Below are positions 7,981-64,000 of a DNA stretch of 64,000 bases, one piece after another; positions within the stretch are counted from its first letter, which is position 1; every line of letters begins with the position of its first letter. Location of the stretch: assembly GCA_000146465.1 (NCBI GenBank), contig CP001952.1. One strand, 5' to 3'. The notes beneath the pieces are model-generated. The model did not search any database and was not told the origin of the DNA. It worked only from the letters and a program-made list of their open reading frames with translations. The position numbers were made by a program, and so were the translations under genes.

Positions 7981-8394
7981 TTATTCCCGAACTTTTTCAA
8001 TAATCTCCTTGACAACGGTTTTTCCCTTTTCTGTGAGCATGTCCTGAGGATGATCGTTTATCCACCCCATGTTCTTTAGATTCTCGAGTACAGAGATCCC
8101 TATTTCTGGATAAGCACCAACATACTTGCTGGGACGGCATCCTCTGTTTTTGGAGGAACCATATTTATTTGCAAGATACTCGGGAGTAACTGTGCCCCTT
8201 ATAGATATCTGCCTCACAATAGAGGCCATTCTCGTGAAATACCAGTCTTCATCAATAGGTGCTTGCTCCCGTCCTTCTCCCGTCTTCATGATATCATGGT
8301 CTTTTATAGGAACCACTTTGTTAGTTGATTTAAGATAAGATTTAAGTGCCTCGTTGAACTTTTCTGGCCTGACATCATAGATCTCTTCCATCAT
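7981..8394 (-). CDS. RPS19: 40S ribosomal protein eS19
   Basis: KDHDIMKTGEGREQAPIDEDWYFTRMASIVRQISIRGTVTPEYLANKYGSSKNRG...YPEIGISVLENLKNMGW matches eS19. The start is set at the internal MMEEIY Met. That Met is preceded by AAAATTTTCACCCCAG on the coding strand, which is the C-rich start motif. The ORF track's extension to 8454 is probably read-through. Confidence 0.85.
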   Translation of the reverse strand: MMEEIYDVRPEKFNEALKSYLKSTNKVVPIKDHDIMKTGEGREQAPIDEDWYFTRMASIVRQISIRGTVTPEYLANKYGSSKNRGCRPSKYVGAYPEIGISVLENLKNMGWINDHPQDMLTEKGKTVVKEIIEKVRE

Positions 8395-8464
8395 CTGGGG
8401 TGAAAATTTTGCTGTCGTCAAAACCAAAAGCCTTACAATTAGGGTGCCTACCATGAAACCCTAA

Positions 8465-19075: not shown

Positions 19076-20311
19076 TTGGTATGTAGCCCTGGAATGACCA
19101 AGGGTTTAAATAACAGGGATGCAATTATAGCCATGATTCTTGCGATGATGGGGACAGGGATAACCTTTATGCCATATGCATTTAAATCCGCAGGATATCT
19201 TAATGCAATATTTCTTATGATGTTCTTTGGAATGGGGACGGCCGTGTCATGCTATTGCATTTCTTATGCAGCAAAGCGTTCAGGCCAGAACCATCCCACA
19301 TATTCTAGCTTAGCATCCGATATTTCTACAACACTTGGGTATGCAGTAAACATTTCCATCTTCTTCAATGGATATCTTGCAGGTGTTAATTTCTACAGAT
19401 ATCTATCGGATCTAATTGTTAAGAACTCATACTATATCCAAAATCTTACCGGAGACTACGAGAAGTCTCGGAAGGCTGTTGTTCTTGCCCTTTCAATTCC
19501 ATTTCTGTATCTGTCCTTCAAGAAGACACTGTCGGGCCTTGTATTTACGTCTTATCTGAGTATTGCATCTGTATTATATCTGTCGTTTCTTATGATTTAT
19601 CTATTCCTTGTTGTAGGAACCTCGTCTGTGGGCGGAAAGGCAAGACCATTTAACGGATCCTTGGAGGAAGCCGTTCCCTTTTTCATTTCCTCTATGGTGT
19701 GCCAGGCAAATATGGTCAAAATATATACGGAAATGGAGAAGAAAGGCAACAGAAACATTGTGATTGTGTCTCTAGGTGCTGCCGTCGGAGGAATGCTCAT
19801 CAACTGTTTTATTGGACTTTTTGGATATCTCGTGTTTGGAAACGGTGTGTCTGGGGAAATTATAACAGAGCTCTCTGATATGGACAGCCCAATCAACAAA
19901 CGTCTCAGGGAAGGCTGGGATAAGAATAACATCATGTCTGGAATGGCAATCTATGGAATAATGATTACATTGTTTGGAGGGTATCCAGTTCAAGTCAATC
20001 CAGTCGGAGATATGATATTCAAGCTCCTTCCTTTGGAAAGGCGAACAGAACCCAACAGAAAGGCAATGGTTGTCTTACTGTGGTTTGTAGCCGTACTTCT
20101 GAACCTTATGAAAGAGCTTAAGACAAAGATAATTAAGAAATTTCTTGGAGCTACGTTTTCCAATTCTGTGGCATTTGTATATCCGTTTATATACTACTTG
20201 TCGATGAGAAAAACCAGATCTCTTGTGCCAACAATGGTATGTTGTTTTATGATAATAATGAGTATCGTAGTAAGCATCTATACTGTCTTTAGGTTTTCTC
20301 TAGGTGGCTGA
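19076..20311 (+). CDS. Amino acid transporter (AAAP/Aa_trans family)
   Basis: 411 aa with about 10-11 TM segments. The N-terminal AIIAMILAMMGTGITFMPYAFKSAGYLNAIFLMM matches the Aa_trans N-terminal block (NLxNxIIGAGILxLPYAFKxAG). Confidence 0.65.
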   Translation: MVCSPGMTKGLNNRDAIIAMILAMMGTGITFMPYAFKSAGYLNAIFLMMFFGMGTAVSCYCISYAAKRSGQNHPTYSSLASDISTTLGYAVNISIFFNGYLAGVNFYRYLSDLIVKNSYYIQNLTGDYEKSRKAVVLALSIPFLYLSFKKTLSGLVFTSYLSIASVLYLSFLMIYLFLVVGTSSVGGKARPFNGSLEEAVPFFISSMVCQANMVKIYTEMEKKGNRNIVIVSLGAAVGGMLINCFIGLFGYLVFGNGVSGEIITELSDMDSPINKRLREGWDKNNIMSGMAIYGIMITLFGGYPVQVNPVGDMIFKLLPLERRTEPNRKAMVVLLWFVAVLLNLMKELKTKIIKKFLGATFSNSVAFVYPFIYYLSMRKTRSLVPTMVCCFMIIMSIVVSIYTVFRFSLGG

Positions 20312-57924: not shown

Positions 57925-59094
57925 CTATTTTTGGAGACTACCTTTCGCGTTTGGAATCAAAGTGACGCCATCATGGGGAATCCTTTGGTTAGCTCCTTCC
58001 TTGAGAGAACTTCTAGTTTCGTCCTCTCTTCCTCTCTTTTCCGCCCGATTCTTGAGGAAGTCAAAGTCGTCAAGCGAAAATCCATCAGGAAGGTCTTCAA
58101 GGAATGAAGATGGTGCTATGTTATAGTCTTTACTCCGCTTAGGAGAAGCTGCATCTAGGTTTACTGAAGGCTTTTCTATTATTGCAGTGCTGAATAAATC
58201 ATTACATAGGCCATCTGTTCGATGGAGATCATACTCCAGCTGTTGATCTCCTGATGAAAACAATTTATCCTTAATGTTGAATGCGGGAAAAGCCTGTTCC
58301 AAAAATCCATTTTTCTGTATTTCCTCGAATTGCTTGTCATATATATTTGGAGATGATTTTGGAACAGATGGTGCAGTAGGTGTTTTTTTCTGCATTTGCT
58401 GGTCGAAAAGGATATCCTGCTGTGGCATCGTCCTTCCCTGGCTGTACATCATCCCCATTGGCAGGACTTTATTTTCTATCCCCCTTAAATATCGCGGGTC
58501 CACATCTCCTCCCATTCTTTTGCTATTCTGCCTTGTATGGCTTACAAATCCAACCATTCCATGAGGCAACATGCTATTTCTTGTGAGATTATTAATATAC
58601 TTATTATACGTAAATAGGTTTGTTTCCCGTCTCAAATCCCTTTCTAATGCATCACAAAACAAAGCGTCGTGTGGGACACTATACCAGTAAAAAACCTTCT
58701 GCTTCTTTTGAGTTCTTATGCAACCGTTCTTGTATAGAAACTCCAAAAACTCGCTTCTAGGACCCTCAAGCGTTGCATCTATCCCCGGTTTCAAGTTTCT
58801 CAGATCAGAAAACACTCCCTCCTCAAATTTTTTTAGACTTGTAAGGCATCTTCCAGCATTTTGGAACCTCCAAACTAGTATTTTCACTATGTCTGTCCCT
58901 GTAATGAAGAAATGCATGTTCCATAATACACAATGAATATAATCTCCATTCTTCAGCTGAAACTTCTTGATTCTTTCACCGTCCCGAAACTCCTTTGGGG
59001 CATTGGATAGAAACTCAAACAGTTCCTTATCACTTTGGGCATTCATCTTTATTTGTTTATTACCATTTGTTTTTATATCCAAGACACAAAACAA
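57925..59094 (-). CDS. STE12: STE12-like transcription factor (STE homeodomain-like DNA-binding domain)
   Basis: The N-terminus matches the fungal STE domain almost block for block: FQLKNGDYIHCVLWNMHFFITGTDIVKILVWRFQNAGRCLTSLKKFEEGVFSDLRNLKPGIDATLEGPRSEFLEFLYKNGCIRTQKKQKVFYWYSVPHDALFCDALERDLRRE. Yeast Ste12 reads ...FVSCVFWNNLYYITGTDIVKCCLYRMQKFGREVVQKKKFEEGIFSDLRNLKCGIDATLEQPKSEFLSFLFRNMCLKTQKKQKVFFWFSVAHDKLFADALERDLKRE. Confidence 0.85.
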   Translation of the reverse strand: MFCVLDIKTNGNKQIKMNAQSDKELFEFLSNAPKEFRDGERIKKFQLKNGDYIHCVLWNMHFFITGTDIVKILVWRFQNAGRCLTSLKKFEEGVFSDLRNLKPGIDATLEGPRSEFLEFLYKNGCIRTQKKQKVFYWYSVPHDALFCDALERDLRRETNLFTYNKYINNLTRNSMLPHGMVGFVSHTRQNSKRMGGDVDPRYLRGIENKVLPMGMMYSQGRTMPQQDILFDQQMQKKTPTAPSVPKSSPNIYDKQFEEIQKNGFLEQAFPAFNIKDKLFSSGDQQLEYDLHRTDGLCNDLFSTAIIEKPSVNLDAASPKRSKDYNIAPSSFLEDLPDGFSLDDFDFLKNRAEKRGREDETRSSLKEGANQRIPHDGVTLIPNAKGSLQK

Positions 59095-59522
59095 AGAATT
59101 GTTTATCTTGTTTCATATCAATATCTCCTTATGTCACTGTCCTACGCCTTCTTTCTGCCTCATCTTCCATTTCTCCCGTTTTCTAACAACGTTATAATTA
59201 AAACCTCTAAAATCAAGGGTTATATTGAAAATAAGCCCTTAATACTAACAATGCCAAAATGCTTAAAGCAAAATCTCAATCATTAAATTTTCTGAAAAGG
59301 ATACTTCTACTAGGCGTTGGATATAAAAGATGGCCTTTAGCCTAATCCATTGGCGTTAAGGGATCATCATATTCTCCTTAAGAGTTTCCATAATCGGTTA
59401 TAATTATCCCGCCTTTGCTAATTGTTTAAAAAGGACATAGCTCCTTTCAGTTTCCTTTAACCAACCAACAAAAAATGCCCGTAAATTTGAGGAGTATATA
59501 CTTGAATTTTTAGCAGTAAAGT

Positions 59523-60134
59523 ATGAGAGCTCTCAAATGTACATGTATTCTTTCGATCAAGACTATTTTGTGCATACGAGGGGGCTTTGCGCTTTTTGAG
59601 TTTGAGGATCCGCCTGAGGACAATCTAGAGAGATTTAATGGTATGACCAGCATGAAGATTTTAGAATTTATAAAAGAACAGATGGAAGATATAGAGCAAG
59701 CTGTTGATGATATCATAAATAAAAGTGAGGAAAGGAATGAAGAGGAGGAAGACGAAGATGAAGAGGTAGATGAAATGATGGAAGACGAAGATGGTTTTGA
59801 AAGCTCAAAACAAAAATCCATACTTTGTGAAAATTGTTCATGGGCTACACAAACCCTAGAACCTTGCGATATTTGTAAAGAGAAAAGAACACTAAAAGAA
59901 CTTGCATACGGACTAGTTTGTATAGGTGAAACTTTAGTAAGCGGGGAAGTTCAAGTGTGGGAAGTCAATGAAAAAATTCAATTTTTGATAGAGTCAATTC
60001 TTGTAAAAGCCATTGAAGAAGAAAAACAAGAAGATACCGTGTCTATAATGAACATAAGAACTTCACAAGCAGCGGTAGTTCAAGCCATAGTTTTTCTTGA
60101 GTCATTAGTTGGGTCTCTTGATATTTACAGTTAA
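59523..60134 (+). CDS. Hypothetical acidic protein (203 aa)
   Basis: An E/D-rich stretch (EERNEEEEDEDEEVDEMMEDEDG) and a CENCSW...CDIC pair. No recognisable domain. Confidence 0.35.
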   Translation: MRALKCTCILSIKTILCIRGGFALFEFEDPPEDNLERFNGMTSMKILEFIKEQMEDIEQAVDDIINKSEERNEEEEDEDEEVDEMMEDEDGFESSKQKSILCENCSWATQTLEPCDICKEKRTLKELAYGLVCIGETLVSGEVQVWEVNEKIQFLIESILVKAIEEEKQEDTVSIMNIRTSQAAVVQAIVFLESLVGSLDIYS

Positions 60135-60169
60135 AATTAAAGGGATACATACTATGTGTAAGTAGATGT

Positions 60170-60775
60170 ATGTATCCTCCAAACTACCCCTTTCCGAATC
60201 GAACGATGAAAACAAAAATCAAATCTCTTGTAATAGAAAATCTTAAATACAAAGTGTCTAAAGACCAGGTAATAAAAATCCTCAAGAGTGAAAACATATC
60301 TTTAAAAGCATATAATAGCTTCCTTTTCAAGATATTGTTAGAACTTAGGAATCAGTTCGAAGTTATTGGACCTACAAAAAAGTTCAACGTTGGTACTTTC
60401 TTGGATAAAGAATTCCTTCAGGGAGACTTATTGTTAGAAAATAGAAGGAAAAGGGAAGAAGCTCAAAGAAACGACACTTTGTTCGAGAAAGAAAATATCC
60501 CAACAAAATATTATGCCAATACAATGCATCTGTCATATAGATTACTCGGTAAAATGATAACAAAAGACGAGGTTCTAGAACGGTTTAAAGAATGTTCTAC
60601 CATATTGGGGTTGAACAGAGATATTGGAGAAAAATGCGCAGAGCACTTAGAGGAAGGGCTGCAGACGTACATTCTAAGAACCGTGAGTAAGTGCAATGGA
60701 AGAACGACCGTCCCAAATCTTAAAACCAGTTTGGAAAAATATCTACGTTTATTTAACGGATTAGATATGTTTTAG
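60170..60775 (+). CDS. Hypothetical protein (201 aa)
   Basis: Intact ORF. Its 3' end overlaps the convergent exosome-subunit gene by about 23 nt. Confidence 0.35.
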   Translation: MYPPNYPFPNRTMKTKIKSLVIENLKYKVSKDQVIKILKSENISLKAYNSFLFKILLELRNQFEVIGPTKKFNVGTFLDKEFLQGDLLLENRRKREEAQRNDTLFEKENIPTKYYANTMHLSYRLLGKMITKDEVLERFKECSTILGLNRDIGEKCAEHLEEGLQTYILRTVSKCNGRTTVPNLKTSLEKYLRLFNGLDMF

Positions 60776-61451
60776 ATATAATCTCCTGTATAATACTTGA
60801 AAGTGTTTTTTCTTCAAAATTACAAATTCCTTCGCAAAAACAGCCCATCAATATACCTTCATTGTTACTAAATATATGTATTAGTCCACAAGACGCTTCT
60901 TCCTCAATTCTTGTTGGATCCATCACAAAATGGCCATTGTCAAACAAAGCAACTGTTTTCGAGGTTGGGATGCTTATTTTTTGTTTTTCCGTTTCTTTCA
61001 GATTACCTACTATAGGAATATCAAGATTTTCGAGCAAAGCACCAAGACTGATAAAAAATAAATCAAAAATGTTTCCATCATTACTTAGTATGCTGAACTC
61101 TATTCTTATGCCTATTTTATATGGAGCTAGCAAATCCAAAATTATAGAGGAAATGGTATTTGGAATTGCAATTTTAGAAAATTCTATAGACTCAGCAGAG
61201 AATTCGTTTCCATCAAAGTTTTCTTTGAGTATCCCGGAAGCTTCCAGGGTTTCGGCAGTCTCCTTGAACTGTACAGATACTTCTATCTCAGATAGCCCAC
61301 GTCTAATCTTGATGCTTCCATCACTTTGTGCTATGTCTGTATGGACTACGTTTGTCCTTCTTGCTTCTCCATTCTTCCTCAGATCCGCCCGGAGTCCGTT
61401 TGCTATCCCATTTCTCACAAGCGCCAGCTCGTCCAGCCCAAAGGCTTCCAT
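60753..61451 (-). CDS. Exosome complex RNase PH-like subunit (Rrp41/42/45 family)
   Basis: 232 aa. The N-terminal LVRNGIANGLRADLRKNGEARRTNVVHTDIAQSDGSIKIRRGLSEIEVSVQ resembles the RNase PH domain-1 opening of exosome ring subunits. Length fits. Confidence 0.45.
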   Translation of the reverse strand: MEAFGLDELALVRNGIANGLRADLRKNGEARRTNVVHTDIAQSDGSIKIRRGLSEIEVSVQFKETAETLEASGILKENFDGNEFSAESIEFSKIAIPNTISSIILDLLAPYKIGIRIEFSILSNDGNIFDLFFISLGALLENLDIPIVGNLKETEKQKISIPTSKTVALFDNGHFVMDPTRIEEEASCGLIHIFSNNEGILMGCFCEGICNFEEKTLSSIIQEIISKTYLIR

Positions 61452-61868
61452 GGGCTTTCTTGCCAGGGCTTATTTCTTCCCAGACTCCCTCCTACAATCT
61501 AGCTTCTCTTGATTTTCGACTCTGTCTTTGCAAACGACTTGTCTATTCTCTTCCCAACCATCCCTCTGCTCTTGCTCTTCCTTCCACTAATCATCCGAGG
61601 AAGTGTTTTTATAACTGTAATGGCAATCACAAAAACCAGAAGGACAATGGAGAATGTGTGGAGAACTGCAATTACACTACTTCCTTCAACCCCGGGGAAA
61701 AAAGCCATTTTGAAAGGAAGTGTTTTGGATGTATTTAATAGTTTTTGATGTGTCTGGCAGAGGCCTATTGGTCACTTCTGTGCATGGGCGACCACTCATC
61801 CCGCAGAGGTGCCTTCATCCGCCGCCAGGTTGTCTGGGATGTAATCCCTTGGTGCAGAAGCCCTGGAA

Positions 61869-62669
61869 ATGGGACACCTGTGGAAGACAGCCTTGGACTG
61901 GGCAGGGGTGCTTGGACAGAATCTCAGGAAGGAGTTTGATGGCAACGCCAGGCTCAAGGATGCATGCTCGCGGATTGCAAGGGAGTGGAGCGAGTGGAGA
62001 GAAGGGGTGGAGAAGACCGGTGTGTTCTGGCTCGGACAGAGGGCTGGGGAGATATCGGGGAGAGTAATGAGGCTTTCGGATGCCTCGATGGGACTTGCAC
62101 TGGAGGCAGCAGGGATTGGGAGAGTGTGGCGGGGACAGAGGGAGTTCCAGAAGAGACTGAACAGGATGTTCAGGATTCCGCAGTACTACGGAGGGATCCG
62201 GAAGAGTGAGGGGGAAAGCGGCAGAGACAGGAGGGCCGGGGGACTGGTCCAGTTCAGGCCCAGCCTCATGGGAATGGGATGGAGAGTTTACTCTTGGATC
62301 AGGCGGGGATTTGGAGTGGGGTGGAATGACCTGGACATAGAAGAGATCGAGAATGAGCAGCTGAGCAGGATATTTGAAGGGATGGAAGGACAGGGGGAGT
62401 CTGGGCCATGGACGGAGGAGGGGGCGGCAGACATTCACAGCCTGTGGAAGGAGATAGGGGGTTCTGGGATGTCTGTTGTAGACATCAGGAATGTCTCGAC
62501 GGTGGGGAGTATTGGGAGACGGAGGCTTGAGTCTGGATTTGAAGTGGAGATTGCAGGACAGAAGGGGGGGAAATGGACCAGACATGTGTTTGTGATGCAG
62601 GCGGTGTTTGAGCGCGGGGCAGACGGGAGATGGAGTCTCGGCAGACTCAGATGGACAAGGGTAGGATAG
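61869..62669 (+). CDS. ORF of uncertain coding status in the GC-rich, purine-skewed segment. The predicted protein is G/R/E/W-rich and low in complexity.
   Basis: 266 codons. It is divergent from the exosome gene and convergent with eL35 at a 22-nt spacing, which fits the local packing. However, the antisense strand also carries a 256-codon P-rich ORF (61815-62585), so the open frame may be compositional. Confidence 0.25.
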   Translation: MGHLWKTALDWAGVLGQNLRKEFDGNARLKDACSRIAREWSEWREGVEKTGVFWLGQRAGEISGRVMRLSDASMGLALEAAGIGRVWRGQREFQKRLNRMFRIPQYYGGIRKSEGESGRDRRAGGLVQFRPSLMGMGWRVYSWIRRGFGVGWNDLDIEEIENEQLSRIFEGMEGQGESGPWTEEGAADIHSLWKEIGGSGMSVVDIRNVSTVGSIGRRRLESGFEVEIAGQKGGKWTRHVFVMQAVFERGADGRWSLGRLRWTRVG

Positions 62670-62690
62670 GACAAGATGGAAGAATGCAGT

Positions 62691-63059
62691 TTATTCATTA
62701 TAGGCAAATATGACTTTCGGGAATTTACGCTCTTTGGCTCTCTGTCTTGCTGTTTTCCTCCTGAGCTGGTGCTTTGTGAGGGCCTGTCTCTTTGCCCTGT
62801 TGAGCCTGGGCCTGAGGATGTTTGGGAGCTTGTGGACAGGAATCCCCTTGTACTCGTCGACCAGCTTCTCAAGAATCTTCTCGCGGCGGATGGTGAGCAG
62901 ACGAGCCAGATTCTTCCTGGTTGTCTTGATGTCGTCCTCTCCGACATCTCCACTGTTCTTCTTCTGGCGGAGGGCTGCCAGGTCGGCCTTGATCTCCCTG
63001 GCCTTCTCCTCGAGCTGCTCAACACTCAGCTGCCTGAGCTCGGATGCCTCGATCTTCAT
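62691..63059 (-). CDS. RPL35: 60S ribosomal protein eL35 (uL29 family)
   Basis: MKIEASELRQLSVEQLEEKAREIKADLAALRQKK...IKTTRKNLARLLTIRREKILEKL...KYKGIPVHKLPNILRPRLNRAKRQALTKHQLRRKTARQRAKERKFPK is collinear with eL35 (MAKIKAxELRxKSKEELLKQLxDLKxEL..LRVAK...IRVVRKSIARVLTV..). The start is set at the internal MKIEAS Met, which is preceded by GCCCTA. Confidence 0.8.
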   Translation of the reverse strand: MKIEASELRQLSVEQLEEKAREIKADLAALRQKKNSGDVGEDDIKTTRKNLARLLTIRREKILEKLVDEYKGIPVHKLPNILRPRLNRAKRQALTKHQLRRKTARQRAKERKFPKVIFAYNE

Positions 63060-63142
63060 TAGGGCTTCTGGAATGCAAAGATTTGAAGCAAAATCTGCAG
63101 GGGACAAAAACGGACAGGGAGGGCGGCAAGGAACAGGCGTGG

Positions 63143-63355
63143 TCAGAGGGTCGGGGACATGGCGACAAAGAGAATGTTCTCGCCCCTCAGAAACAGGACG
63201 CGGCCTGCAGAGTTCTGGACATCGTGGCTTTGCAGCATCAGGTTGATGTGCTCGTCAAACCCCTCCAGAGTGCCTGTATAGACATCGCCGGTCTTTGTTT
63301 TTATCTCGACCCTCTCGTTTAAGTACATCTTGAGAAAGCAGAACGGATCCAGCAT
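63143..63355 (-). CDS. Sm/LSm-fold protein
   Basis: MLDPFCFLKMYLNERVEIKTKTGDVYTGTLEGFDEHINLMLQSHDVQNSAGRVLFLRGENILFV carries the Sm1 and Sm2 motifs: V.IKTKTG..Y.G.L..FD.HMNLVL in Sm1 and RGENI in Sm2. The 273-codon ORF in the track extends upstream as read-through. The start is set at MLDP, preceded by GCCCTGCACTTCTG. Confidence 0.65.
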   Translation of the reverse strand: MLDPFCFLKMYLNERVEIKTKTGDVYTGTLEGFDEHINLMLQSHDVQNSAGRVLFLRGENILFVAMSPTL

Positions 63356-63448
63356 CAGAAGTGCAGGGCACGGTAAAATTTTCTTATGGACGGCAGAGCA
63401 CACGGGCGGAGCAGAGGCAGGATTTATGGCCGGGGCAGGCAGCCCTTG

Positions 63449-63943
63449 ATGAGATATTTGGAGATGAGCTGCATATCGAAAACAAACAAACTGTTCCAGA
63501 AGCTCCAGGACATCAATCCGCAGCTCAACATCGAGGTGGAGGCATACTCCTGCAAGTCGAGCAGGAAGCAGAGGGGACAGAGGGATGTGGAGAAGCCTCT
63601 CCGGTACCTGCAGTCTGCGCTGGGGCTGCGGTTTCCAGACTACGACTTCCATGGGGAGCCGTGGAGGTCGTTTGAAAGGAAGACGCTGGAGGAGGTGCTT
63701 CGGGAGGTGGCATATTCGATCAGCACAACACACAAGAACAGCGAGGATGTAAAGGAGTTTGTGGGGTTTCTGGAGATGATTCTGGACAGGTCGATCAACA
63801 CGGGGTCGTGCTTGATATTTTCGTACAAGAACCGGATGGGGCCTTTTGAGGACTGCTTCTGGTACTTTTCGTTCCTGCTGTTTAGCAAGAGGCAGAAGAG
63901 AGTGGTGATGCTCAATGCATTTATGAGCAGAAGCGATGTGTAA
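63449..63943 (+). CDS. MAF1: Maf1, RNA polymerase III repressor
   Basis: MRYLEM...IEVEAYSCKSSRK (Maf1 box A, ..RIEAYSCK..), then PDYDFHGEPWRSF (box B, SDYDFS), then the C-terminal GPFEDCFWYFSFLLFSKRQKRVVMLNAF (box C, LWSFNYFFYNKKLKRIV). The start is set at the Met preceded by GCCCTTG. Confidence 0.8.
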   Translation: MRYLEMSCISKTNKLFQKLQDINPQLNIEVEAYSCKSSRKQRGQRDVEKPLRYLQSALGLRFPDYDFHGEPWRSFERKTLEEVLREVAYSISTTHKNSEDVKEFVGFLEMILDRSINTGSCLIFSYKNRMGPFEDCFWYFSFLLFSKRQKRVVMLNAFMSRSDV

Positions 63944-64000
63944 ATACCTGCGGGAGCAGGACATTAAAGTTCTTAATTGAGATTGAGTGTTGTGTGGTTT

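What the first reader, a model, noticed from the sequence alone, without database searches (positions are those of the whole stretch)
61740..63960. Abrupt GC-rich island (about 55-60% GC) carrying eL35, LSm and Maf1 inside an otherwise 36-38% GC genome
Base composition and third-codon-position usage change within a few hundred bp at about 61.7 kb. This is not a chimeric join or contaminant. The three genes in the island have the same extreme divergence and short length as the rest of the window, and each start codon is preceded by the same C-rich motif seen throughout (GCCCTA-ATG, GCCCTGCACTTCTG-ATG, GCCCTTG-ATG). Two ribosomal protein genes in one 64-kb window, eS19 at 8 kb and eL35 at 62.9 kb, therefore use opposite codon GC3 preferences. 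Candidate explanations are a subtelomeric or recombination-associated isochore (GC-biased gene conversion), a recently relocated block, or an expression-linked compositional domain.
Basis: seen in the sequence. Interest (0 to 1): 0.75.

Follow-up and report, generated by a model that had tools for sequence, protein, structure and literature searches.

The report
Subtelomere boundary of Encephalitozoon chromosome XI
The GC-rich patch is real, but it is the already described point where the single-copy core of an Encephalitozoon intestinalis chromosome meets a block of genes kept nearly identical on three chromosome ends, so it is ordinary for this genus.

Summary
The composition jump is real. 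Positions 61740-63960 are 54.6% GC against 39.7% for the rest of the window, about 9.7 SD above same-size windows. GC3 is 0.67-0.76 in the island against 0.42±0.05 in 52 core genes.

The window is Encephalitozoon intestinalis, right arm of chromosome XI. The jump starts at about 61324, which is 128 nt inside an RNase-PH-like gene. That is exactly where a repeat shared with two other chromosome ends begins. The rDNA unit lies about 11 kb further out and the chromosome end about 19.5 kb.

The same block (69-aa ORF, 266-aa ORF, eL35, LSm, Maf1) sits at the same three ends in E. cuniculi (its EXT6 repeat) and E. hellem. Copies are 99.5-100% identical within a species and 67-70% between species, which is concerted evolution.

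The shift affects silent and intergenic sites, not GC2, which argues against codon selection. It is not a chimera, because it is reproduced in independent assemblies and species. GC-biased repair during ectopic gene conversion is the best mechanism but is not shown. The equally homogenised distal repeat is not GC-rich.

Abrupt GC shifts at core-subtelomere boundaries are published (Dia 2016; Mascarenhas dos Santos 2023). The feature is already known and of low interest.

The parts
59000..61250 (.). AT-rich edge of the single-copy chromosome core (GC minimum before the subtelomere)
   Evidence: 200-bp windows are 0.30-0.39 GC. GC3 of core genes falls toward this edge, Spearman -0.61, p=1.6e-6. 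This matches the published bell-shaped core GC profile with a minimum at the transition (PMC4704409).
60753..61451 (-). RNase-PH-like (exosome-type) gene, 232 aa. It is the last core gene and its first 42 codons lie inside the interchromosomal repeat.
   Evidence: Pfam gives weak matches to RNase_PH and RNase_PH_C. The gene is conserved at this position in E. cuniculi, E. hellem and loci L023-L025. GC3 is 0.50 in the 42 codons inside the repeat and 0.27 in the other 190 codons, Fisher p=0.006.
61324..64000 (.). Start of the subtelomeric interchromosomal repeat shared by three chromosome ends. It runs off the window and continues at least 11 kb to the rDNA unit. The GC-rich island is its first ~2.6 kb.
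   Evidence: blastn of the window against CP075164 and CP075165 starts at 61324, with 99.85% identity over 2677 bp. The repeat continues for at least 10.1 kb at 99.5-99.6% identity. The microsporidian SSU rRNA gene starts 11,047 bp beyond the boundary in L004. The boundary lies 19,451 bp from the end of CP075168.1.
61499..61708 (-). Conserved 69-aa ORF with a hydrophobic central segment. It is the first complete gene of the repeat and is less GC-rich (0.43; GC3 0.46).
   Evidence: It is annotated in all assemblies. It is 38-61% identical to orthologues at the same position in five relatives.
61869..62669 (+). Conserved hypothetical protein, 266 aa, with no Pfam domain. It is the most GC-rich gene of the island (57% GC; GC3 0.67; GC2 0.50).
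   Evidence: No Pfam match was found. Orthologues in the same position in E. cuniculi, E. hellem, L025, L023 and L024 are 30-47% identical, with 34 invariant columns.
62691..63059 (-). Ribosomal protein eL35 (uL29 family), 122 aa
   Evidence: Pfam Ribosomal_L29, E=1.6e-11. GC3 0.72, GC2 0.34. The ATG is at 63059, preceded by GCCCTA.
63143..63355 (-). LSm/Sm-like protein, 70 aa
   Evidence: Pfam LSM, E=1e-14. GC3 0.74, GC2 0.30.
63449..63943 (+). Maf1 (RNA polymerase III repressor), 164 aa. It is the last gene of the GC-rich island.
   Evidence: Pfam Maf1, E=4.5e-16. GC3 0.76, GC2 0.35. It is 98% identical to E. intestinalis Maf1, 80% to E. cuniculi ECU07_1840 and 78% to E. hellem Maf1. GC falls to 0.44 and then 0.38 after its stop codon in L004.

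Best explanation
What is shown. The window is the right arm of Encephalitozoon intestinalis chromosome XI. The GC-rich island is the innermost ~2.6 kb of that chromosome's subtelomere. It is the first part of a block of at least 11 kb that is present almost identically on three chromosome ends (chr XI, VII and VIII in E. intestinalis). [quoted passage not shown] It lies between the single-copy core and the terminal rDNA unit.

[quoted passage not shown] The chr XI end is the source, because the other two ends carry only a truncated 5' stub of the chr XI RNase-PH-like gene. The copies have since been homogenised within each species by ectopic recombination, which is concerted evolution.

What is inferred. 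The high GC is a neutral, regional effect on weakly constrained sites (third codon positions and spacers). The most likely cause is GC-biased repair of heteroduplex mismatches during interchromosomal gene conversion. This acts against the AT-biased drift that has lowered GC in the adjacent non-exchanging core edge. It is neither codon selection nor foreign DNA.
For: (1) Identity and location. Exact-protein look-ups place the window in E. intestinalis assemblies. The boundary is 19.45 kb from the end of the telomere-to-telomere contig CP075168.1, and the SSU rRNA gene starts 11.0 kb distal of it.

(2) The composition step coincides with the repeat boundary. Homology to the other two ends starts at 61324. 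The likelihood change points are at 61.23-61.35 kb and 61.75 kb. The step falls inside one coding sequence, with GC3 0.50 against 0.27, p=0.006.

(3) Concerted evolution. The same block is at the same three ends in three species. Copies are 99.5-100% identical within a species and 67-70% between species.

(4) Site classes. Island GC3 is 0.67-0.76 against 0.42±0.05 in the core. Spacers are 0.53 against 0.35. GC2 of eL35, LSm and Maf1 is 0.30-0.35 against 0.34 in the core.

(5) Active maintenance. Fourfold sites are only 45-59% identical between species. GC4 is nevertheless 0.56-0.91 in island genes and 0.22-0.42 in flank genes (excluding the 203-aa ORF with only 14-24 fourfold sites) in all three species.

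(6) An independent replicate. A second duplicated housekeeping segment (PRS6B-kinase-371aa-Arf, 4369 bp, 99.93% identical, CP075165 and CP075167) is 0.49-0.55 GC over most of its length, between flanks of 0.29-0.45. The GC drop at its right-hand end falls within about 100 bp of the end of the repeat. Its Arf end is only 0.44-0.45.

(7) Controls. Three relatives with the homologous junction show no step there (L023, L024, L025). L023 has ordinary core genes beyond Maf1, and in L025 the short-read contig runs straight through the junction.

(8) Literature. [quoted passage not shown] GC shifts are used to delimit cores in PMC10158259.
Against: The mechanism (gBGC) is not demonstrated.

- The distal 8 kb of the same repeat is at least as well homogenised, with 0 substitutions among the three copies, yet in E. 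intestinalis it is only 0.37-0.48 GC. It has an extreme GC skew of +0.5 to +0.94.
- All 35 substitutions among the copies lie in the first 3.5 kb. The GC-rich part is therefore the part less recently homogenised.
- The differences between copies show no weak-to-strong excess (14 against 17, and 8 against 5).
- CpG observed/expected does not differ between core, island and distal repeat, so methylation-driven decay of the distal part has no support here.
- The relative L025 is about 50% GC throughout. Part of the contrast could therefore be AT decay of the core edge rather than GC gain in the block.
- I could not examine the chromosome centres of E. intestinalis. In E. cuniculi, core apexes reach 54-59% GC, so the island's composition may not be unique genome-wide.
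Confidence: 0.6

Rival explanations
1. Regional mutation bias of the subtelomeric chromatin domain. Replication asymmetry, late replication, or heterochromatin and cytosine methylation would give a different mutation spectrum distal to the core boundary. Recombination would play no part in setting the composition.
For: The island and the whole repeat have positive GC skew on the strand read toward the telomere: +0.15 to +0.33 in the island and up to +0.94 distally. Dia et al. attribute the skew to replication or transcription asymmetry (PMC4704409). Mascarenhas dos Santos et al. report intermediate 5mC/5hmC in subtelomeres that coincides with the nucleotide-bias shifts (PMC10158259).
Against: GC is high only in the first 2.6 kb and not across the subtelomeric domain. 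The second GC-rich segment on CP075167 is flanked on both sides by AT-rich unique DNA, and its right-hand GC edge matches the end of the duplication within about 100 bp. CpG observed/expected is the same in core, island and distal repeat.
Confidence: 0.2
2. Relic composition. The block keeps an ancestral GC-rich codon usage like that of the relatives L023 and L025, while the unique core edges decayed toward AT. No force would actively raise GC in the block.
For: L025 has the same gene order and is 50% GC throughout. L023 is 54% GC. Both have GC3 of 0.6-0.8 in the orthologues. Core GC3 declines steadily toward the edge.
Against: Fourfold sites have turned over by about half between the three species, yet GC4 of the island stays at 0.56-0.91 in all three while the flanks stay at 0.22-0.42. 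Unbiased gene conversion does not protect neutral sites from a genome-wide AT mutation bias, so some bias is still required. This last point follows from population-genetic theory, not from a test made here. The relative L024 is 40% GC throughout, so the ancestral state is ambiguous.
Confidence: 0.12
3. Translational or expression-linked selection for GC-ending codons in highly expressed housekeeping genes.
For: eL35 is a ribosomal protein gene. The island is confined to conserved housekeeping-type genes and stops where the subtelomeric gene families begin.
Against: Intergenic spacers in the island are 0.53 GC against 0.35 in the core. eS19, also a ribosomal protein gene, has GC3 0.43. The uncharacterised 266-aa ORF shares the bias. 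GC3 changes within the RNase-PH-like coding sequence at the repeat boundary. The orthologues show no contrast with their neighbours in L023, L024 or L025.
Confidence: 0.04
4. Assembly chimera, contaminant, or recently transferred or relocated DNA.
For: The region is a three-copy repeat. The window's island sequence equals the chr VII/VIII copies and differs at 13 transitions, one further mismatch at 61491 and one indel from the telomere-to-telomere chr XI copy, while the 10.7 kb of adjacent core is identical. The distal side of the join in this assembly may therefore be a paralogue consensus.
Against: The junction is reproduced in CP075168.1 (long-read, telomere-to-telomere), in CM119896.1, in E. 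cuniculi (two assemblies), in E. hellem (three assemblies) and in L025. The genes have microsporidian orthologues and the same CCC-type upstream motif. Linkage of the RNase-PH-like gene to Maf1 is ancestral.
Confidence: 0.02

Closest known systems
EXT6 (EXT6-1) subtelomeric repeat of Encephalitozoon cuniculi GB-M1 (Dia et al. 2016, BMC Genomics 17:34, PMC4704409)
   Same: [quoted passage not shown] There is the same sharp GC rise after a GC minimum at the EXT-to-core transition. The boundary is in or next to the RNase-PH-like gene in both species.
   Different: In E. intestinalis the GC-rich part is confined to ~2.6 kb and the rest of the repeat is 0.37-0.48 GC. In E. cuniculi the whole repeat stays at 0.47-0.58. 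The sequences are only 67.5% identical. The end that is X-alpha in E. cuniculi is on chromosome VIII in E. intestinalis (Eint_081910).
Core/subtelomere architecture of Encephalitozoon chromosomes (Mascarenhas dos Santos et al. 2023, BMC Genomics 24:237, PMC10158259)
   Same: The order is telomere, TAREs, rDNA, subtelomere, core. The subtelomeres are duplicated across chromosomes at 96.5% identity or more. Abrupt shifts in GC/AT, GT/AC and GA/CT content at the core edge are used to delimit the cores. The window shows exactly this at 61.3 kb.
   Different: That paper states that repeated segments other than the rRNA locus are not conserved between species. Here the inner eL35-LSm-Maf1 block is positionally conserved at the same three ends in all three species. 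Methylation could not be examined here.
GC-biased gene conversion domains and GC-rich subtelomeres in other eukaryotes (for example high subtelomeric GC in Cryptosporidium canis, PMC10438818; recombination-associated GC3 in yeast and mammals, from general knowledge)
   Same: GC enrichment is concentrated at silent and noncoding sites. It is tied to a region that exchanges sequence between chromosomes, and it is independent of gene function.
   Different: No weak-to-strong fixation bias was measurable here. The best-homogenised part of the repeat is not GC-rich. Meiotic recombination has not been observed directly in Encephalitozoon (from general knowledge).

Membership tests
Encephalitozoon subtelomeric EXT-type interchromosomal repeat | Lies between the single-copy chromosome core and the terminal rDNA unit | tested here: met
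   Microsporidian SSU rRNA (Rfam RF02542, 233 bits) starts 11,047 bp distal of the boundary in L004. The boundary is 19.45 kb from the end of the telomere-to-telomere contig CP075168.1.
Encephalitozoon subtelomeric EXT-type interchromosomal repeat | Repeated on several chromosome ends at very high identity (96.5% or more in PMC10158259) | tested here: met
   Three ends in one telomere-to-telomere assembly (CP075164, CP075165, CP075168) share 99.5-99.6% identity over at least 10.1 kb, starting at window 61324.
Encephalitozoon subtelomeric EXT-type interchromosomal repeat | Sharp GC increase at the EXT-to-core transition, preceded by a GC minimum in the core edge | tested here: met
   GC is 0.30-0.37 at 60.1-61.2 kb and rises to 0.55-0.59 by 61.8 kb. 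The same step is seen at all three ends in three species.
Encephalitozoon subtelomeric EXT-type interchromosomal repeat | Carries interAE, interB, interC or interD multigene families (DUF1609, DUF3654, DUF2463) | tested here: met
   DUF2463 and DUF3654+DUF1609 genes lie 3-8 kb distal of the boundary in L001, L004 and L005. None lies within the GC-rich island itself or inside the window.
Encephalitozoon subtelomeric EXT-type interchromosomal repeat | Positional homology with E. cuniculi EXT6 (VII-beta, X-alpha, XI-beta) | tested here: met
   The E. cuniculi Maf1 copies lie on AL590447 (end), AL590449 (start) and AL590450 (end), with the same neighbouring core genes as the three E. intestinalis ends. 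The EXT6 ends are named in PMC4704409.
Encephalitozoon subtelomeric EXT-type interchromosomal repeat | Intermediate 5mC/5hmC methylation or heterochromatin state | not testable with these tools
   This needs nanopore or PacBio signal data. CpG observed/expected is 0.53, 0.54 and 0.43-0.64 in core, island and distal repeat, which is uninformative.
GC-biased gene conversion (gBGC) domain | GC excess at silent and noncoding sites irrespective of gene, strand or expression, with little change at second codon positions | tested here: met
   GC3 is 0.67-0.76 against 0.42. Spacers are 0.53 against 0.35. GC2 is 0.30-0.35 against 0.34. The step falls within one coding sequence.
GC-biased gene conversion (gBGC) domain | The region demonstrably undergoes gene conversion or recombination | tested here: met
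   Concerted evolution is shown by copies that are 99.5-100% identical within species and 67-70% between species, at the same three ends.
GC-biased gene conversion (gBGC) domain | Excess of AT-to-GC over GC-to-AT changes among segregating or fixed differences | tested here: inconclusive
   Of the 35 differences among the three copies, 14 have the weak base and 17 the strong base in the chr XI copy. Outgroups are too diverged to polarise them.
GC-biased gene conversion (gBGC) domain | GC scales with the intensity of exchange along the region | tested here: not met
   The distal 6.5 kb has 0 substitutions among copies but is only 0.37-0.48 GC. The GC-rich first 3 kb holds 33 of the 35 substitutions.
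Translational-selection codon bias | Bias confined to the coding third positions of highly expressed genes | tested here: not met
   Spacers are also GC-rich. eS19 has GC3 0.43. Hypothetical ORFs share the bias.
Assembly chimera or foreign DNA | The junction is not reproducible in independent assemblies or relatives | tested here: not met
   The junction is present in three E. intestinalis assemblies and, at syntenic positions, in E. cuniculi, E. hellem and L025.

The most novel reading that the evidence does not exclude
The GC-rich state marks only those duplicated segments that can be homogenised solely by heteroduplex-forming gene conversion. These are the ancient inner eL35-LSm-Maf1 block and the internal PRS6B-Arf block. 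The distal subtelomere would instead be replaced wholesale by break-induced-replication-like copying, so it stays GC-poor while being perfectly identical between ends. If this is true, Encephalitozoon chromosome ends would be a compact natural experiment that separates GC-biased mismatch repair from recombination as such, in a parasite with no observed sexual cycle. It would also explain why the only copies of essential genes (eL35, an LSm protein, Maf1) have been kept in triplicate in subtelomeres across the genus.
Probability: 0.2. Interest if true: 0.5.

Novelty: already known. Interest (0 to 1): 0.2.

Why it matters
It matters little as a discovery. Abrupt GC shifts at the core-subtelomere boundary of Encephalitozoon chromosomes, and the EXT6 repeat that carries these genes, are published and are even used to define chromosome cores.

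Three details go modestly beyond what I found in those papers:
- The composition step coincides, to within about 100 bp, with a repeat boundary that lies inside a coding sequence.
- The triplicated eL35-LSm-Maf1 block is positionally conserved and concertedly evolving in three species.
- In E. intestinalis the GC-rich zone is restricted to the old housekeeping part of the repeat.

Only one 90%-identity Maf1 cluster per species turned up in the homology search. The only Maf1 genes found are therefore the subtelomeric copies. The same is probably true of eL35 and LSm, but I did not test that.

For annotation, the finding is a reminder that sequence distal of 61324 in this assembly may be a consensus of paralogous copies.

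Tried and rejected
- An exact-protein look-up with eL35 read from 63062 found nothing. The true ATG is at 63059, so the query carried one extra codon. Look-ups with the RNase-PH-like and 266-aa proteins worked.
- Greedy longest-ORF gene calling failed inside the island, because GC-rich DNA gives long antisense ORFs such as 63143-63964(-). I replaced it with the annotated and Pfam-supported genes.
- I tried to polarise the differences between copies using E. hellem, E. cuniculi and L025 as outgroups. The outgroups disagree with one another, and fourfold sites are about 50% diverged, so no direction could be assigned.
- I tested CpG depletion as a signature of methylation-driven decay of the distal subtelomere. 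It showed no contrast between regions.
- I did not walk out to the telomere repeats themselves. Look-ups are limited to 10-kb flanks around window-encoded proteins, so the loci stop 8-9 kb short of the chromosome ends. I relied instead on the contig lengths of the telomere-to-telomere assembly, the SSU rRNA hit and the published architecture.
- I rejected three readings as set out under the rival explanations: codon-usage selection, assembly chimera or contaminant, and recent relocation.


Full report
**Observation**

Per-kilobase GC across the window is 0.34-0.44 up to 61 kb, then 0.556 (62001-63000) and 0.521 (63001-64000). Same-length windows elsewhere have mean 0.3975, SD 0.0154 and maximum 0.434, so the interval lies about 9.7 SD out.

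At 200-bp resolution the rise begins at about 61.2-61.3 kb (0.46-0.51). It dips to 0.41-0.43 at 61.5-61.75 kb and reaches a plateau of 0.55-0.59 from 61.8 kb. It falls to 0.455 in the last 200 bp of the window. The likelihood change-point profile has two near-equal optima, at 61.23-61.35 kb and at 61.75 kb.

**Genes**

Pfam confirms eL35/uL29 (62691-63059, minus strand), LSm (63143-63355, minus) and Maf1 (63449-63943, plus). It also confirms eS19 at 7981-8454 (minus).

Both are real genes. Orthologues sit at the same position in five relatives, at 30-47% and 38-61% identity respectively.

Composition by site class:
- GC3 is 0.67 (266-aa ORF), 0.72 (eL35), 0.74 (LSm) and 0.76 (Maf1), against 0.422±0.054 (range 0.28-0.54) in 52 core genes.
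- GC2 of eL35, LSm and Maf1 is 0.30-0.35, which equals the core mean of 0.337.
- Spacers in the island are 0.528 GC, against 0.353 for core non-ORF sequence.

The change therefore sits at weakly constrained sites, coding and noncoding alike. The quoted GCCC-type motifs upstream of the ATGs are present. CCC within 30 nt of the start occurs in 28 of 52 core genes, against 19% of random 30-mers. From general knowledge, this is the CCC-like microsporidian promoter signal.

**What the region is**

Exact-protein look-ups place the window in Encephalitozoon intestinalis. The RNase-PH-like gene (60753-61451, minus) is unique to one contig per assembly. In the telomere-to-telomere assembly that contig is CP075168.1, 270,484 bp.

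The 266-aa protein is encoded on CP075164.1 and CP075165.1. A slightly different copy is on CP075168.1. Each copy is followed by eL35, LSm, Maf1, a 270-aa ORF, DUF2463 genes and a DUF3654/DUF1609 gene.

blastn shows that homology between the window and the other two chromosome ends begins at window position 61324, with 99.85% identity over 2677 bp. It continues for at least 10.1 kb at 99.5-99.6%. Position 61324 is 128 nt inside the RNase-PH-like coding sequence. The other two ends carry only that truncated 5' stub, a 56-aa ORF in L004. The chr XI end is therefore the source of the block.

The boundary maps to about 251,033 of 270,484 in CP075168.1, which is 19.45 kb from the chromosome end. 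In L004 the microsporidian SSU rRNA gene starts 11,047 bp beyond the boundary.

This is the published Encephalitozoon architecture of telomere, TAREs, rDNA, subtelomere and core. That work delimits the cores by abrupt GC shifts (PMC10158259).

**Coincidence of the composition step and the repeat boundary**

The GC rise starts within about 100 bp of 61324. Within the RNase-PH-like gene, the 42 codons inside the repeat have GC3 0.50 and the other 190 have 0.27 (Fisher p=0.006). The sample is small, but the same pattern is seen in E. cuniculi, where the boundary is 100 nt inside the gene. In E. hellem the boundary lies just outside the gene and the contrast is weaker.

**Other species**

In E. 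cuniculi (GB-M1 and ATCC 50602) and E. hellem (three assemblies), the same block sits at the same three chromosome ends. The flanking core genes are also the same: DUF1686/MYG1 at one end, Arf/PRS6B at the second, and RNase-PH/STE/kinesin at the third.

[quoted passage not shown] Those are exactly the ends that Dia et al. assign to repeat EXT6-1 (PMC4704409).

Block copies are 99.5-100% identical within each species but only 67-70% identical between species. This is an ancestral triplication followed by concerted evolution.

The GC step is present at all ends in all three species. Core flanks are 0.32-0.43 GC. The first 2 kb of the repeat are 0.53-0.59 and the third kb 0.47-0.56. GC3 is 0.29-0.46 in flank genes and 0.65-0.80 in the four main island genes.

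Fourfold-degenerate sites are only 45-59% identical between species. GC4 nevertheless stays at 0.56-0.91 in island genes and at 0.22-0.42 in the flank genes with at least 50 fourfold sites, in every species. The contrast is therefore actively maintained. It is not a relic of a recent move.

**Controls from relatives**

Three Logan contigs from unnamed relatives carry the homologous junction:
- L023 (uniformly 0.54 GC) has RNase-PH, a 70-aa ORF, a 224-aa MRG-like ORF, a 287-aa ORF, eL31 and Maf1, followed by ordinary core genes.
- L024 is uniformly 0.40 GC.
- L025 has the Encephalitozoon gene order, including eL35 and LSm, and is uniformly about 0.50 GC.

None shows a step at the junction. In L025 the short-read contig runs straight through the junction. 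This suggests the block is single-copy there, but that is an inference.

**A second, independent case**

The chr VIII end also has a GC-rich stretch on the core side of the block. Its 371-aa ORF (Eint_081910) is encoded on both CP075165.1 and CP075167.1. The duplicated segment (PRS6B, kinase, 371-aa ORF, Arf) is 4369 bp long and 99.93% identical between the two. It is 0.49-0.55 GC over most of its length, and only 0.44-0.45 at its Arf end.

On CP075167 it lies between unique flanks of 0.29-0.45 GC. The GC drop at its right-hand edge matches the end of the repeat within about 100 bp. This segment corresponds to EXT6-2 of E. cuniculi, which Dia et al. noted as GC-rich although it contains no inter genes.

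**Mechanism**

Codon selection is disfavoured for four reasons. Spacers share the bias. eS19 is GC3-poor. Hypothetical ORFs share the bias. The step occurs within a single coding sequence.

Chimera, contaminant and horizontal transfer are excluded by the reproducibility of the junction and by synteny.

A neutral regional process tied to interchromosomal exchange fits best. GC-biased gene conversion is the standard candidate, and Dia et al. already raised it.

It is not demonstrated, and there are real difficulties:
- In E. intestinalis only the first ~2.6 kb of the repeat is GC-rich.
- Beyond Maf1, GC drops to 0.37-0.48 while GC skew rises to +0.5 to +0.94.
- All 35 substitutions among the three copies lie in the first 3.5 kb, and none in the next 6.5 kb. 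The GC-rich part is the part less recently homogenised.
- The differences show no weak/strong asymmetry (14 against 17).
- CpG observed/expected is flat across regions.

Two reconciliations are possible, and both are inferences. First, the inner block is ancient and shared by three species, so it has had time to reach a gBGC equilibrium, while the distal gene-family region turns over quickly. Second, the distal region is replaced wholesale by BIR-like copying without heteroduplex, while the inner block (and the internal PRS6B-Arf block) can only be homogenised by heteroduplex-forming conversion.

Part of the contrast may also come from AT decay of the core edge. Core GC3 falls toward the chromosome end, Spearman -0.61.

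**Caveat on the window itself**

The 10.7 kb of core adjoining the island is identical to CP075168.1. In 61491-63943 the window differs from CP075168.1 at one mismatch (61491), 13 transitions and one indel. Over the aligned 61499-63943 it equals the chr VII/VIII copies. The join is real. The window's distal sequence may nevertheless be a majority consensus of paralogues, or it may reflect a strain-level conversion event.

**Comparison with what is known, and verdict**

The feature is a member of the Encephalitozoon EXT-type subtelomeric repeats and is the homologue of E. cuniculi EXT6. It shows the abrupt core-to-subtelomere GC shift described in 2016 and 2023. Every defining feature that could be tested was met. 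Methylation could not be tested.

The modest additions are these:
- The base-level coincidence of the GC step with a repeat boundary that lies inside a coding sequence.
- The conservation of the triplicated housekeeping block at the same three ends across three species. The 2023 paper states that repeated segments other than rDNA are not conserved between species.
- The restriction of high GC to the inner housekeeping part of the repeat.

Novelty: already known. Interest: low.

Noticed in passing
window 61491-63943 compared with L001 (CP075168.1), L004 and L005: In 61491-63943 the window differs from the telomere-to-telomere chr XI copy at one mismatch (61491), 13 transitions and one indel. 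Over the aligned 61499-63943 it is identical to the chr VII and VIII copies. The adjoining 10.7 kb of core is identical to chr XI. This suggests either a paralogue-consensus assembly or a strain-level conversion event.
   Followed up: partly
L004 9413-9583 (E. intestinalis chr VII end); L011 7823-7921 (E. cuniculi): Truncated 5' stubs of the RNase-PH-like gene (56-aa and 33-aa ORFs) were carried to the other chromosome ends with the repeat. This marks the chr XI end as the donor of the triplication.
   Followed up: partly
L026 and L027 9197-13565 (CP075167.1 and CP075165.1): A second duplicated housekeeping segment (PRS6B, kinase, 371-aa ORF Eint_081910, Arf) is 4369 bp long and 99.93% identical between the two chromosomes. 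It is 0.49-0.55 GC between flanks of 0.29-0.45 and is the homologue of E. cuniculi EXT6-2. A 487-bp inverted copy around the uL23 gene (L026 7665-8151 against L027 15974-15489, 99.4%) lies nearby.
   Followed up: partly
L004 12500-20500 (distal subtelomere, beyond the window end): GC skew is extreme, +0.5 to +0.94 on the strand read toward the telomere, at only 0.37-0.48 GC. The strand is purine-rich. A perfect 25-bp tandem repeat, GGAGGAGATGGAGTTGGGATGTGGG x3.9, lies at 19832-19929, about 570 bp upstream of the SSU rRNA gene. The three copies have zero substitutions in this part.
   Followed up: partly
window 1-61300: GC3 of core genes declines steadily toward the chromosome end, from about 0.47-0.50 at 1-15 kb to 0.29-0.37 at 59-61 kb (Spearman -0.61, p=1.6e-6). 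This is the outer flank of the published bell-shaped core GC profile.
   Followed up: partly
window-wide, 30 nt upstream of start codons: A CCC-containing motif, often GCCC, is found upstream of 28 of 52 core genes, against 19% of random 30-mers. It is also upstream of four of the five island genes, but not of the 69-aa ORF.
   Followed up: partly
L023 9585-9920 and L024 9586-9924: In two more distant relatives an eL31 gene occupies the slot between the ~290-aa ORF and Maf1 that holds eL35 and LSm in Encephalitozoon. L024 also joins genes that lie on different Encephalitozoon chromosome ends (KIX_2/SRF-TF next to RNase-PH), which indicates rearrangement at these ends.
   Followed up: no
L025 (Logan SRR21633403, 49-kb contig): An unnamed Encephalitozoon-like organism has Maf1 75% identical to the window's, the same gene order as the window from SMC to Maf1, and about 50% GC throughout. 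Its contig ends 360 bp after Maf1. It may be an undescribed or unsequenced species and would be a useful outgroup.
   Followed up: no
window 60753-60775: The 3' ends of the convergent 201-aa ORF (60170-60775, plus; annotated as 189 aa) and the RNase-PH-like gene (60753-61451, minus) overlap by 23 nt. This is typical of microsporidian genome compaction.
   Followed up: no
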